From Octopus vulgaris (taxonomy: Eukaryota), in NCBI GenBank assembly GCA_951406725.2, contig OX597814.1:7998001-8062000 (forward strand): 64,000 bases of DNA, in the 5' to 3' direction. The position numbers and the translations under genes are program-made. Below, piece after piece: positions 1,166 through 58,027 of this stretch; positions within the stretch are counted from its first letter, which is position 1, and every line of letters starts with the position of its first letter. Below the pieces are notes generated by a model. The model saw only the letters and a program-made list of their open reading frames with translations, made no database searches and had not been told where the DNA came from.

Positions 1166-1819
1166 AGATATATGTTGATCAGATCCCTTTAAACAACCAA
1201 GTGGCAACATGTAAGCAGAAAATGTTTATAATATTTCCATTCTGTAAACTATACAACACAAGTAAACTTGAGAGAAAAGTCAGAGAAAAGAATTCTATTG
1301 ATAAATTCGAACCTGTTTTAAATGGACAGTTATAGTAATGGTGATAATTATAATGATGATGCTGATAATAATAATAAATAGTACTGCTGCAGCCACTGAC
1401 ACCACCACTACCACCTCTAACAACAACAAAAAAAAAAAAGGTGATGATTAGGATGGTAGTAGCACTGAGCATATGACCATAGACTAAATTGAAATGTAAA
1501 TATTTCTGGAATAATAACAAAAGAATTCAATGAAAACAAGAATGTTGTTTACAACATTCCAAAATATAGCCAAACAATTATTCCTTTAGGTGCAGTCAAA
1601 GTAAAGAATCTTTGATGTGCCCACCAAGCTGTGACATCTAAGCCACATACTGATTGGTCAAAATACTATTAGAATGTAGTTGGTGCACCCACCAAACCGT
1701 GACATTGAAGCCACATGCTGATTGGTCATAATACAGCTCATAAGATTCAACCTGCTGCAGCCTTTTGCTGGGTATTTAAGAGATAAATCTAAGCATTTCA
1801 CTAGAGATGTCAATTGTGG

Positions 1820-45144: not shown

Positions 45145-46305
45145 CAAAATCAAAGGAAGGTTAATGGGGAAGATAGTTTTTGTGTGTGGCAAATGCTCAG
45201 GGGCATTAAACACAGAAGATGTACAGAAAACAACTTCTGTCACATTCCGTTAACTAGGTGACCAAGTTAGTAGCAGTGGTGGATGCTCTGAGGGCATAGC
45301 TGCTAGAATAGGAATAACCTGGGCAAGTTCTTATCTCTACTGGTAACAAAGGGCCTCTCACTCAGAGTGAAAGGTAGATTGTATGATACATGTGGGTGAA
45401 CAGCCATGCTACATGGCAGTGAAACATGGGCCATGACTGCTGAGGACATGCATAAGCTTTCAAGAAATGAAGCCAGTATGCCCCGATGGATGTGTAATGT
45501 CAGTGTACATACTTGACAGAGTGTAAGCGCCCTGAGAGAAAAGTTGGACATAAGAAGCATCAGATGTAGTGTACAAGAGAGACGACTGCGCTGGTATGGT
45601 CACGTGTTGCGAATTGATGAGGAGAGCTGTATGAAGAAGTGTCACACCCTAGCAGTTGAGGGAACCTGTTGAAGATTTAGACCTAGGAAAACCTGGGATG
45701 AGGTAGTGAAGCATAACCTTTGAACATTGGTCCCCACAGAGGCAATGATGAGCAACCGAGACCTTTGGAGATATGCTGTGCTTGAGAAGACCCAGCAAGC
45801 CAAGTGAGACCATAACCAGCCCATTTAAGAGTACCCTTCAATCATTGGCCAATAAACTGCACTTGCAAACACCTGTTGAGACAAGTGAAGTCGTTGTCAT
45901 GGCCAATGATTGGCACCCGTGCTGGTGGATTGTAAAAAACTCCATTCAAGCATGGTCAGTGTCAGTACTGTCTAACTGATCCTGTGCCGGTGATACATAA
46001 AAAAAAAACATTCGAGTAGAATCATTACTTGTGCCGCCTAACTTGTCCCATGCCGGTGGCACGTAAAAAGCATCATTCAAGCGTGGCTGATGCCAGTATC
46101 GCCCGACTGGCCCTCGTGCAGGTAGCACATAAAAAGCACCCACTACACTCTCAGAGTGGTTGGCATTAGCAAGAGCATCCAGTTGTAGAAACATTGCAAG
46201 ATCAGATTGGAGCCTGGTGCAGCCTTCTGGCTTGTCAGTCCTCAGTCAAACCAGCCAACCCATGACAGCATGTAAAGCGGACGTTAAACGATAAGGATGA
46301 TGATT
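45145..46305 (+). mobile_element. RTE 3' part plus tail
   Basis: FVCGKCSG, HGSETW, RRLRWYGHV; tail ending gcggacgttaaacgat. Confidence 0.88.
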
Positions 46306-46859
46306 TTTTAAACAGAAAAGATTGAAATTAACAATAGACAAACAAAATATTTAAAATATTTAATGATTTAAGGAAATGAGGCACTCAGATCAAAGATATT
46401 CCATCCATGGCCTTCCAGCAACTGGGAGACATGGTATTATAGTGGATGCGGCAGAAAAACCTTCCACTGTGACCACTGATGTGGTGTTAGTGAAGTTAAA
46501 CATGTGGCAATGGTGTCTTCATGTAGCTGAAGTTGTATTGTTTCTTCTCTCCACTCACCATTCTGATTAAAACTGCTGAGTCTTGTGTTTGCTGTTGAAA
46601 TGTCTATCAAGAATGTTGAAGTTGAGGTTCTTTGGTGCATCTTGTGTACCCAAGAATATTTGCGGCACAAAAGCAGAGTACAAGGTAATTATTTTCATAT
46701 TGTAAGCAAGAAGGAGGAGGTGGAGGAGGTCCAACAATTAGGATCATGGTCATTCATAAGAGAGATGACAAAGGAAAAGAGAAAAGATTCAAAACGAAAG
46801 AACTTCACAAACAGTTCTACAGTGGACAGGAATTTCCCCAATTTCTTCATTTCAGCATA

Positions 46860-47229
46860 TGGACATAAAGAATGCCTTTTGGTATTAACACTGCTTCTGT
46901 TGCTATTAATTATCTTTAATAAGACTTCAGGCTATTTGTGACATCAGTGTCTATATATCGTTGACGGAGATTTGGCTGTTATGTTGCTACAGGGCATCTG
47001 TCACTGATGAACCTGAGCAGAGCGAAAATACGTGATCTGGCAGTTCTGGTGCCTGTAGCAGATGATTGTCATCTACCAACAATATAAATATGAGTGCTTT
47101 TATGGACCGTGTGTCCATATGAGAGGTCCTCTCAAGGTAAATAAGGCAGTATTTGGTGTTCTAACACATCCACATTTAGTTGGATATAAAGATTGCCTTT
47201 AGGTATTAATACTGCTTCTGTTGCTATTA
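46860..47229 (+). mobile_element. Candidate non-LTR retrozyme: 321-nt unit with 49-bp direct repeat
   Basis: 46860-46908 and 47181-47229 match at 45/49 positions; interior contains a hammerhead fold and several hairpins. Confidence 0.65.
46985..47060 (+). ncRNA. Type I hammerhead ribozyme fold (degenerate stems II and III)
   Basis: CTGATGA 47004-47010, GAAA 47024-47027, ATC 47035-47037; stem I ctgtca/tggcag extended by tgctacagg(g)cat/gtgcctgtagca. Confidence 0.7.
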
Positions 47230-47249
47230 CTTTTAATTACCTTGATTTA

Positions 47250-47550
47250 GGTTCAGTCTCAAGCGTCTTTAACTACAGCTATAGGCCAAACAAACCCTGG
47301 TAGGCAGAAAATGAGAGAAGCCTGTCATACATATGTGTTTGTGTCTCCTTGCCTTGACATTATGTGTTAGCTGTAAACGAGTGTCCCTGTTATGCAAGCG
47401 GTGTCCTTTGTTTCTAATATTTTGTAAAATGAGGAAATAGCTACCTCCCTTGGAACGAGGTGAGGGTTGGTGACAGGAAAGGCATCAAGCCATAGAAAAT
47501 CCACCTCAACAAATTCTATCCCACACAAGTTAGCAGATGGAGATGGTGGT
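47250..47550 (+). mobile_element. Degenerate SINE-like repeat
   Basis: Ends with gagggttggtgacaggaaaggcatc..catagaaa, a variant of the shared tail. Confidence 0.5.
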
Positions 47551-47689
47551 GGTAGTGGAGATGATGGTGATGAAGAGGATGCATTCTGTTATTGAAATAT
47601 CATCATCATAAATATAGAGAGTGAAGGAGGAAAGAGAGAGAAAGAATGAAGATTTGCAGTTATTCTTTCACTGTTGTAATAAGCTACTC

Positions 47690-49027
47690 CCACCTCTCTC
47701 TCTCTCCCACTCTGTCTGTCTTTGTCTCTCTCTTTCTCTCTCTCACACACTTTACCTACCTACCTATCCATCTATCTATTTACCGACCCACCTACCTACC
47801 TACCTACCTTATCTATTTATATATCTATCTGTCTGTCTATCCATATATCTGTCTGTCTGTCTATCCATATATCTGTCTGTCTGTCTATCCATATATCTGT
47901 CTGTCTGTCTATCCATATATCTGTTTGTCTATCTGTCTAGCTATCCATCAATCCATCCACATGTCTGTCTAGCTATCCATCAATCCATCCATATATCTGT
48001 CTAGCTATCCATCAATCCATCCATATATCTGTCTAGCTATCCATCAATCCATCCACATATCTGTCTAGCTATCCATCAATCCATCCACATGTCTGTCTAG
48101 CTATCCATCAATCCATCCATATATCTGTCTAGCTATCCATCAATCCATCCACATATCTGTCTAGCTATCCATCAATCCATCCACATATCTGTCTAGCTAT
48201 CCATCAATCCATCCATATATCTGTCTAGCTATCCATCAATCCATCCACATATCTGTCTAGCTATCCATCAATCCATCCACATGTCTGTCTAGCTATCCAT
48301 CAATCCATCCATATATCTGTCTAGCTATCCATCAATCCATCCACATGTCTGTCTAGCTATCCATCAATCCATCCATATATCTGTCTAGCTATCCATCAAT
48401 CCATCCATATATCTGTCTAGCTATCCATCAATCCATCCATATATCTGTCTAGCTATCCATCAATCCATCCATATATCTGTCTAGCTATCCATCAATCCAT
48501 CCATATATCTGTTTAGCTATCCATCAATCCATCCATATATCTGTCTAGCTATCCATCAATCCATCCATATATCTGTCTAGCTATCCATCAATCCATCCAT
48601 ATATCTGTCTAGCTATCCATCAATCCATCCACATATCTGTCTAGCTATCCATCAATCCATCCACATGTCTGTCTAGCTATCCATCAATCCATCCACATGT
48701 CTGTCTAGCTATCCATCAATCCATCCATATATCTGTCTAGCTATCCATCAATCCATCCATATGTCTGTCTAGCTATCCATCAATCCATCCAGCTGTCTGT
48801 CTAGCTATCCATCAATCCATCCAGCTGTCTGTCTAGCTATCCATCAATCCATCCAGCTGTCTGTCTAGCTATCCATCAATCCATCCAGCTGGCTGGCTGG
48901 CTGGCTGGCTGTATGTCTGTCTGTCTGTCTGTCTAACTATCTCTCTATCTGTTTGTCTGTCTGTCTATCCATATATGTCTTTCTTTGTATGTATATATGT
49001 ATATATGTATGTATGTATGTATTCATG

Positions 49028-56194: not shown

Positions 56195-58027
56195 TGGAAA
56201 CTAGGGATAGATGAATGGTTAGTGAAAGTTGTGCAAGCCATGTACAAGGATGCTGTCAGTAAGGTGAGGGTTGACAATGAGTACAGTGATGAATTCCGGA
56301 TAGGGGTAGGGATCCACCAAGGATCAGTGCTCAGCCCCCTCCTATTCACCACAGTCCCCAGACAATAACAGAGGAATTCAGGAGAGGATATCCCAGGGGA
56401 GCTCCTCTATGTTGATGACCTTGCTCTAATTGCTGAGTCACTATCAGAACTAGAGGAGGAATTTCGGGTGTGGAAGCAAAGATTAGAATCGAAGGGCCTT
56501 AGAGTTAATCTAGCTAAAACCAAAGTCCTAGTAAGTAGGAAGTCAGACAAATTGCAAATTCCTTCAGGTAGATAGCCCTACTCAATCTGTAGAAAAGGTG
56601 TAGGTAGAAACTCCGTAAGATGTACCCAGTGTAAGCTATGGATGCATAAGAGGTGCAGCAATATCAAAGGAAGGCTAACTGGGAAGATAGTTTTTGTATG
56701 TGGCAGATGCTCAGGAGCAATAAACACAGAAAATGTGCAGAGAACAGCTTCTGTCACATTCCTAGGGAGAAAAACTAGAAGTAGTTGATAGCTTCTCTTA
56801 CCTAGGTGACCAAGTCAGTAGCAGGGCTTGATATTCTAAGAGTGTAGCTGCTAGAATAAGAATAGCCTGGGCAAAGTTCAGAGAGCTCTTACCTCTGCAG
56901 GTGACCAAAGGCCTCTCGCTCAGAGTAAAAAGTAGACTGTATGACATATGTGTGCAATAAGCAATGCTACATGGCAGTGAAACATGGGCCATGACTGCTG
57001 AGGACATGCGTAATCTTGCAAGGAATGAAGCCAGTATGATTCACTGGAGGTGCAATTTCAGTGTGCATGCACAACAGAGTGTAAGCACCCCGAGAGAAAA
57101 GTTGGACTTAAGAAGCATCAGATGTGATGCGCAAGAGAGATGACAGCACTGGTATGGCCATGTGTTGTGTATGGATGAGGACAGCGGTACAGCTGTGTGA
57201 AAAAGTGTCACACCCTAGCAGCAGAGAGAACCTGGTAGTAGAGGGAAGACCTGGGATGAGGTGATGAAGCACGACCTTCGAACATTGGGTTATACCGAGG
57301 CAATGATAAGTGACCGAGACCTTTGGAGGTATGCTGTGCTTGAGAAGACTCAGTAAGCCAAGTGAGACTGTAACCATGACATATGCCAGTGTAACTTAAC
57401 CAGCCCGTTTAAGGGTACCCTTCAATCATTGGGCAATAAACAGCACTTGCAAAGACCTGTTGAGACAAGTGAAGTCATTGTCGTGGCCAATAACAGTACT
57501 TCCTGATTGGCACCCATGCCTGTGGTACATTAAAAGCACCATTCAAGCGTGATCTTTGCCAGTGCCACCTGACTGGTTCCTCTGCCAGTGGTACATTAAA
57601 AGCACCGTTCAAGCGTGATCTTTGCCAGTGCCACCTGACTGGTTCCTCTGCCAGTGGCATGTAAAAAGCATCATTTGAGCATGGTCGATGCCAGTGCCAG
57701 CTGACTGGTCCTGTCCTGATGGCATGTGAAAAGCATCATTTGAGCATGGTCGATGCCAGTGCCAGCTGACTGGTCCTGTCCTGATGGCATGTGAAAAAAA
57801 CCAGTCGAGTGTGATCATTGCCAGTACCACCTGACTGGCCCTTGTGCTGGTGGCATTTGAAAATCACCCACTACACTCTCAGAGTGTTTGGCGTTAGGAA
57901 GGGCATCCAGCTCTAGTAAGTTTGCCAGATTGGAATGAAGCCTGGTGCAGCCTTCTGGCTTGCCAGCCCTCAATCAAACCATCCAACCCATGCCAGTTTG
58001 GAAAGCGGATGTTAAATGATGATGATG
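56193..58027 (+). mobile_element. RTE LINE, 5'-truncated, with ~66-bp tandem repeats in its 3'UTR
   Basis: WKLGIDEWLV..GIHQGSVLSP, CTQCKLW; gtggtacattaaaagcacc at 57522 and 57588; tail ending in (GAT)n. Confidence 0.92.

What the first reader, a model, noticed from the sequence alone, without database searches (positions are those of the whole stretch)
46860..47229. Candidate hammerhead-bearing non-LTR retrozyme (321-nt, circular-RNA-like unit)
Seen: a 49-bp direct repeat (46860-46908 vs 47181-47229, 4 mismatches) gives a 321-nt period, i.e. one monomer plus a partial second. Inside is a type I hammerhead fold: core CUGAUGA (47004), GAAA (47024), AUC cleavage triplet (47035-47037), a 6-bp proximal stem I (ctgtca/tggcag), an internal loop, and a 9+3-bp distal stem I. 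Further hairpins follow in a row (agatga-ttg-tcatct 47060-47074; tatggac-cgtgt-gtccata 47101-47119; tgagag-gtc-ctctca 47120-47134). There is no coding remnant. Established: metazoan non-LTR retrozymes are tandem units of a few hundred nt with type I hammerheads, expressed as circular RNAs and thought to be mobilised by Penelope-type machinery; Penelope remnants occur in this window. Inference: this is a copy of a possibly undescribed cephalopod retrozyme family, reverse-transcribed past one full circle. Stem II (acctgagcagagc, probably from gctctgagcagagc) and stem III (aatacgtgat, probably from the palindrome atcacgtgat) look mutated, so this copy may not cleave.
Basis: partly seen in the sequence, partly recalled or inferred. 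Interest (0 to 1): 0.85.

Follow-up and report, generated by a model that had tools for sequence, protein, structure and literature searches.

The report
Fossil hammerhead retrozyme with Penelope footprint
This stretch is one decayed copy of an old, non-coding 347-base jumping repeat that carries a predicted self-cutting RNA motif and was likely pasted around the genome by Penelope-type retrotransposon enzymes; the kind is already known and this copy is probably dead.

Summary
The 49-bp repeat (4 mismatches), hammerhead core and hairpins are at the stated places. Window 46860-47232 is 1.15 laps of a 347-nt non-coding unit, mapped at 74 loci (73 insertions) across the genome. Copies are 74-90% like the family majority sequence, and no young copy or long array turned up. 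At family level the hammerhead is a regular type I (6-bp stem I, 4-bp stem II, palindromic helix III), and the circle folds well (z -5.1). The window copy has broken stems II and III and folds like shuffled sequence (z -0.6). Copies have variable 5' starts and run through the cleavage site for up to about 3.7 laps. They end in two narrow zones about 40 nt apart and often carry a head-to-head inverted arm; in 10 of 11 two-armed insertions only one arm has the 40-nt tail, the Penelope integration footprint. No copy runs into an ORF, and none of 58 coding Penelope loci carries this unit. Verdict: an apparently extinct non-LTR retrozyme (non-autonomous Penelope-type element). Cleavage, circular RNA and the helper enzyme are untested. 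The scan already noted younger families with this footprint, in this genome and others.

The parts
46860..47232 (+). Whole insertion: 1.15 laps of the 347-nt family unit (unit positions u147 round to u198, counted from the base after the cleavage site)
   Evidence: Alignment to the family unit, 80% identity
46860..46908 (+). 5' partial lap (first copy of the direct repeat), variable 5' truncation point
47181..47232 (+). 3' end of the element (second copy of the repeat); 47199-47232 corresponds to the ~40-nt Penelope-type tail zone
   Evidence: 3' ends of 52 of 67 segments fall in u140-212; tail asymmetry
46976..47003 (+). 5' strand of hammerhead stem I (distal 8+9 bp, internal loop, proximal 6 bp at 46998-47003)
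   Evidence: 83% and 91% of cells paired across 28 copies; RNAalifold recovers 11 pairs of it
47004..47010 (+). Hammerhead core CUGAUGA, intact
47011..47023 (+). Stem II and loop 2; 2 of 4 pairs broken in this copy (A.C at 10.1-11.1, and C.A)
47024..47037 (+). GAAA core, helix III (10-nt palindrome in the family, two bases off in this copy) and cleavage triplet; predicted cut after 47037
   Evidence: palindrome self-duplex -12.9 kcal/mol in the family majority against -4.3 here
47038..47061 (+). 3' strand of stem I
47120..47134 (+). 6-bp hairpin kept in both subfamily majority sequences and in the circular fold

Best explanation
It is a decayed genomic copy of a non-coding, hammerhead-bearing 347-nt repeat that was likely mobilised by Penelope-like retrotransposon enzymes, that is, an apparently extinct animal non-LTR retrozyme family. 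Shown in the sequence: the unit has no ORF; copies run head-to-tail through every position of the unit; they start at variable places and end in two zones 150-175 and 190-210 nt after the cleavage site; many have an inverted 5' arm, and usually only one arm has the ~40-nt tail. Inferred: a source copy with two or more hammerheads was transcribed. The hammerheads would pair through the palindromic helix III and cut out a unit-length RNA that a host ligase would close. A Penelope reverse transcriptase-endonuclease would then prime in the U-rich zone at a nicked, often AT-rich target and copy round the circle for 0.3 to about 4 laps, sometimes switching strand to make the inverted arm. The window copy got 1.15 laps, holds one hammerhead with broken stems II and III, is predicted not to cleave, and has since spread only as a passenger of segmental duplications.
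For: Family: 50, 18, 63 and 33 matches, on many contigs; 52 loci mapped and 22 more. Non-coding circle: 37 alignments of at least one lap, and every unit position crossed by 41 or more alignments; locus L081 holds about 3.7 laps split by two later insertions. Fixed 3' end: 52 of 67 segments end in 21% of the circle, while 11 of 67 start there; 24 of 32 in the fresh sample. Inverted arms: 24 head-to-head junctions in 52 loci. Of the 11 with both arms ending in the end zone, 10 have one long and one short arm, median difference 42 nt; two more such pairs in the fresh sample (L146, L157). Craig et al. (10.1101/2021.04.23.441226, passages) describe partial tandems, an inverted 5'-truncated copy and a 30-40-bp tail usually on one end as Penelope-like traits. 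Hammerhead geometry matches the canonical metazoan type I (PMC4209133, passages). The family circle folds at z -5.1. Laps within a locus are as diverged as copies from different loci (median 0.756 against 0.761), yet share more non-majority bases (27% against 16%): inserted together from one template, not duplicated recently. Coding Penelope-type elements are abundant in the genome.
Against: No significant covariation: 9 pairs changed on both sides, reached by 109 of 500 shuffles, and RNAalifold does not recover stems II or III; the structure rests on complementarity of the majority sequence. Only 10 of 63 copies with a whole hammerhead keep core, stem I and three checked stem II pairs, and 2 of these keep the palindrome. 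In the best circular fold of the majority sequence the core is tied up in another helix (stem I probability 0.06-0.31, stem III 0). No helper element with matching ends was found. Long tandem arrays, typical of published retrozymes, were not seen. Both end zones coincide with T-runs, so transcript ends or priming bias could also explain them. The 11 pairs were picked by hand from 24; the 13 others have an arm ending elsewhere. End positions come from BLAST limits and are good to about 10 nt.
Confidence: 0.8

Rival explanations
1. Same element and same Penelope helper, but the template was a linear, uncut multi-unit transcript from a tandem source locus that ended at the T-runs, not a circle; 5' truncation gives the variable starts.
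For: A fixed 3' end with variable 5' truncation is what target-primed reverse transcription of a linear RNA gives (established knowledge). Both end zones sit at T-runs. Li et al. found cleavage in only 1 of 9 tested dimers.
Against: Copies cross one to three hammerhead sites and 5' starts show no pile-up at the cleavage site, so a cut linear monomer is excluded. No long source array was seen: exact 24- and 25-mers hit 18 and 33 dispersed places, none at 347-nt spacing. One insertion can end in both zones at its two arms. The strong fold of the closed circle fits a circular RNA.
Confidence: 0.25
2. The unit is the pseudo-LTR of a coding Penelope-like element, and the copies are 5'-truncated insertions of it.
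For: Same insertion footprint. Pseudo-LTRs carry hammerheads (PMC4209133), and Li et al. report retrozyme-pLTR homology in Xenopus. Only 58 loci were sampled from 6136 and 2510 first-look candidates. L031 has a same-strand Penelope C-terminus 600 nt upstream.
Against: All 37 alignments of at least one lap continue into another unit, not an ORF. tblastn with 49 Penelope frames hit flanks of 3 of 52 loci and 0 of 22 more, none contiguous with the unit; in L031 a SINE-like repeat and the inverted outer arm lie between. BLAST and the covariance model find no unit in 58 coding loci. Descent from such a repeat by loss of the ORF stays open.
Confidence: 0.1
3. An ordinary SINE-like or satellite repeat in which the hammerhead-like motif is incidental and the partial tandems came from later DNA duplication.
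For: The core pattern alone is common by chance. No covariation. The window copy does not fold better than shuffles.
Against: The family majority has all core bases, three stems in register (85% of cells paired against 27-47% when slid) and a perfect palindrome at helix III; Rfam HH9 hit on L090. Laps in one locus are as diverged as separate loci. The one-sided tail is not expected from DNA duplication.
Confidence: 0.04

Closest known systems
Metazoan non-LTR retrozymes (coral, mussel, axolotl; Cervera and de la Pena 2020, PMC7229834: passages plus sections 14 and 17 read, supplements not read)
   Same: Non-coding unit of about 350 nt (mussel 350-390), GC 43% (under 45%), canonical type I hammerhead, head-to-tail laps, co-occurrence with coding Penelope-like elements.
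   Different: Copies here are old, dispersed, mostly 0.3-2 laps, with no long array seen. Cleavage and circular RNA are not shown. The insertion footprint (inverted arm, one-sided tail) is not described in the parts I read; that paper names Penelope-like elements only as strong candidates for the helper.
Vertebrate non-LTR retrozymes as non-autonomous Penelope derivatives (Li, Clavereau, Pollet, bioRxiv 10.64898/2026.07.22.740005: parts 1-3 of 5 read, i.e. abstract to discussion; supplements closed)
   Same: Same conclusion on the helper; many families have a high share of monomers.
   Different: Their evidence is co-occurrence and pLTR homology. Here the evidence is the integration footprint, and no homologous pLTR was found. 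The window copy fails their 'active' rule of two consecutive units with complete hammerheads. Molluscs were not sampled there.
Penelope-like elements with C-terminal GIY-YIG (Craig et al., 10.1101/2021.04.23.441226, passages; Cervera and de la Pena 2014, PMC4209133, passages)
   Same: 5' truncation, partial tandems, inverted 5' copy, 30-40-bp tail on one end, hammerhead with palindromic helix III, proposed circular template.
   Different: No reverse transcriptase-endonuclease ORF. The hammerhead is canonical with a long stem I, not the minimal pLTR form. No similarity to the pLTRs of the coding families sampled here.

Membership tests
Metazoan non-LTR retrozyme | Canonical type I hammerhead in the unit | tested here: met
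   Met at family level (Rfam HH9 E 0.0025 on L090, under the gathering score). The window copy keeps core and stem I, but stems II and III are damaged.
Metazoan non-LTR retrozyme | Short (150-450 bp), low-GC, non-coding unit | tested here: met
   347 nt, GC 0.43; no ORF or Penelope-protein match
Metazoan non-LTR retrozyme | Head-to-tail repeats, dimers to multimers | tested here: met
   37 alignments of at least one lap in 52 loci; about 2 laps in L080 and L087; about 3.7 in L081, and a similar interrupted multimer in L171. No long arrays. The window copy is 1.15 laps.
Metazoan non-LTR retrozyme | Active copy: two consecutive units with complete hammerheads (Li et al. rule) | tested here: not met
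   The window copy has one damaged hammerhead. This lowers 'active retrozyme', not family membership.
Metazoan non-LTR retrozyme | No LTR, primer-binding site or polypurine tract | tested here: inconclusive
   Variable 5' starts and inverted arms do not fit an LTR layout; PBS and PPT were not searched for
Metazoan non-LTR retrozyme | Self-cleavage of the RNA | not testable with these tools
   needs in vitro transcription
Metazoan non-LTR retrozyme | Expression as unit-length circular RNA | not testable with these tools
   Only assembled contigs of runs guessed to be RNA were available
Metazoan non-LTR retrozyme | Co-occurrence with autonomous Penelope-like elements | tested here: met
   148 GIY-YIG matches, many in 781-aa open frames; RT plus GIY-YIG in L060
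Penelope-like element (autonomous) | RT-GIY-YIG ORF between pseudo-LTRs | tested here: not met
Penelope-like element (autonomous) | 5' truncation, partial tandems, inverted 5' copy | tested here: met
   (24 head-to-head junctions in 52 loci)
Penelope-like element (autonomous) | 30-40-bp tail on one end only | tested here: met
   10 of 11 scored arm pairs, differences 12-54 nt, median 42
Penelope-like element (autonomous) | Spliceosomal intron in the repeat | tested here: inconclusive
   A GT...AG stretch with a branch-like motif lies at 47137-47179, but no precise loss in 82 lap rows and no such joint among the 15 of 17 joints shown for 4 runs

The most novel reading that the evidence does not exclude
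A 347-nt protein-free RNA circle was copied round and round by a Penelope enzyme, and the fossil copies record the reaction: priming at a fixed site far from the ribozyme cut, one to four laps through the hammerhead, strand inversion, and a 40-nt tail on one arm only. This would be direct genomic evidence that animal retrozymes are Penelope parasites and that Penelope partial tandems and tails come from a circular template independent of any ORF.
Probability: 0.6. Interest if true: 0.5.

Novelty: new member of a known kind. Interest (0 to 1): 0.3.

Why it matters
The helper of animal retrozymes has been proposed from co-occurrence and sequence likeness. A one-sided tail and inverted arms on an ORF-less unit are a more direct sign of Penelope machinery, and they bear on how Penelope elements integrate. 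This family is a weak vehicle for the test, though: it is old, its copies are 10-26% off the majority sequence, and this copy is predicted inactive. Younger families noted elsewhere in the scan would serve better. I found no paper describing this family or cephalopod retrozymes (searches; open-access library only, and repeat databases such as Repbase or Dfam could not be searched).

Tried and rejected
Rfam on the window copy: no hammerhead hit. Covariation: not above shuffles, as expected for copies that decayed neutrally, so I make no covariation claim. Coding parent: two searches for Penelope endonucleases; 58 loci were scanned without a match to the unit. L066 (a host-type GIY-YIG exon) and L115 (same place as L047) were left out. 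Empty pre-insertion site: five older paralogues of the flank were fetched; all keep the start of the unit or break off there, so no target-site duplication could be read. Intron at 47137-47179: unsupported. Expression: no RNA holder listed. In runs guessed to be RNA, contigs cover the flank and the unit alike, and one 374-nt contig with 8 differences bridges the 5' junction and the cleavage site; run type is a guess, so nothing is concluded. Young copies in relatives: 526, 510 and 418 contigs of three runs under three organism labels lay on copy L098, mostly under 90% alike; the family is present there, and no young subfamily showed. The near-identical hits (L001, L003-L019) were rejected as independent insertions because they share flanks. 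Subfamily split is rough (46, 23 and 13 unassigned rows) and was not used for conclusions. Look-ups of earlier findings by sequence and by place gave nothing.

Full report
Observation. On its own the copy is unremarkable: the core pattern is expected 4.85 times per shuffled window, folds give z -0.71 and -1.53, and Rfam finds no hammerhead. The question was therefore settled on the family.

Family. A DNA search of the 2.8-Gb genome gave 50 matches from the 40 best of 2203 candidates. The 19 closest (93-100%) share flanks and are segmental duplicates of this one insertion on contigs C1 and C29. Older paralogues at about 73-77% also hold its start, so the insertion is old and has spread passively. 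The remaining hits are dispersed with unrelated flanks. Two exact patterns (18 and 33 hits, 0 for the reversed controls) and a second DNA query (63 matches) enlarged the set. I mapped 52 of the 108 loci then held, leaving out the recent duplicates, repeated places and the Penelope loci, then 22 new loci of 30, the other 8 being places already seen. The unit period is 347 nt. The 82 lap rows are 74-90% like the majority sequence, median 84%. No young copy or long array appeared. The family is also present in runs under three organism labels.

Hammerhead. In 28 aligned copies the layout is a 6-bp stem I extended by an internal loop and 17 more pairs, CUGANGA, a 4-bp stem II with a 5-6-nt loop, GAAA, a 10-nt palindrome and UC. 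85% of cells pair, against 27-47% when partners are slid, but covariation does not exceed shuffles, and RNAalifold recovers only stem I. Copy L090 hits Rfam HH9 at E 0.0025, under the curated cut-off. This is the canonical metazoan type I form, described as needing a second copy to act as a dimer (PMC4209133, passages). The majority sequence folds as a circle at z -5.1; the window copy at z -0.6, with two stem II mismatches and a palindrome duplex of -4.3 against -12.9 kcal/mol. Of 63 segments with a whole hammerhead, 36 keep the core and 10 keep core, stem I and three checked stem II pairs. The window copy is predicted inactive.

Insertion anatomy. With the unit numbered from the cleavage site, 52 of 67 segments end in u140-212, in two groups near 160 and 200, while starts are spread round the circle (the binomial p of 7e-23 overstates, since segments are not all independent). 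The fresh sample gives 24 of 32 (its pattern lies at u92-116, which favours ends after that point). The window copy starts at u147 and ends at u198. 37 alignments cover at least one lap, and every position is crossed by at least 41 alignments, so no ORF sits anywhere in the circle. L081 has about 3.7 laps interrupted by two later insertions. Laps in one locus are as diverged as unrelated copies but share more private bases. There are 24 head-to-head junctions in 52 loci. In the 11 where both arms end in the end zone, 10 have one arm near 200 and the other near 160 (median difference 42 nt, p 0.006); the other 13 were not scored. Craig et al. (passages) give exactly these traits for Penelope-like elements: 5' truncation, partial tandems, an adjacent inverted copy, and a 30-40-bp tail usually on one end.

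Coding parent. The genome has abundant coding Penelope-type elements, some young. None of 58 sampled loci carries the unit, and their repeats show different hammerhead-like motifs by eye. Penelope fragments lie in flanks of 3 of 52 and 0 of 22 unit loci, none contiguous with the unit. The sample is small against thousands of candidates, so an ancient parent or helper is not excluded.

Mechanism. Shown: non-coding unit, multi-lap copies through the cleavage site, fixed 3' zones, inverted arms, one-sided tail. Inferred: dimer-assisted self-cleavage, ligation to a circle, target-primed copying by a Penelope enzyme. A cut linear monomer cannot give these copies. An uncut linear multimer ending at the T-runs can, and remains the main rival.

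Comparison and novelty. The element fits the metazoan non-LTR retrozymes (PMC7229834) in size, GC, ribozyme type and co-occurrence. It supports the Penelope origin argued by Li et al. with a different kind of evidence. Four literature searches found no description of this family. Supplements of these papers were not seen and may list cephalopod repeats. I had read the footprint before looking at earlier notes; these then showed younger families with the same footprint in this and other genomes (unchecked AI notes). Verdict: a new but apparently extinct member of a known kind; interest 0.3.

Noticed in passing
window 46300-47600; G000:C1 7.5-9.4 Mb, 206.6-207.1 Mb, C29 31.8 Mb: The surrounding segment is a multi-copy segmental duplication (19 copies at 87-100%, 6 at about 73%). 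L001 is 99% identical over 3.3 kb, a very recent duplication or an assembly duplicate.
   Followed up: partly
window 47137-47179: Intron-like stretch (AG/GTAAAT donor, CTAAC, AG) kept in the family; a similar donor-like motif stands in the repeat of the young coding element (L055, L060). No spliced copy was found.
   Followed up: partly
L055, L060 and others: A young coding Penelope-type family with many 781-aa open frames, RT plus C-terminal GIY-YIG, and a variant hammerhead-like motif in its 3' repeat (seen by eye).
   Followed up: partly
L060:2939-3041 (-): A second, unrelated type I hammerhead-like motif next to the coding element (17.6 bits, E 0.12).
   Followed up: no
L020, L110-L113: In older paralogues of this insertion a 25-30-nt piece of the unit (about u190-225) has been amplified into a short minisatellite.
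   Followed up: no
window 1174-1329: Penelope-type GIY-YIG C-terminal remnant.
   Followed up: partly
window 45920-46140 and 57517-57868: 66-bp tandem repeats of one common family; also a 32-bp array at 47930-48887.
   Followed up: no
L066: GIY-YIG exon unlike the Penelope ones, resembling a host SLX1-type nuclease (name recalled, not tested).
   Followed up: no
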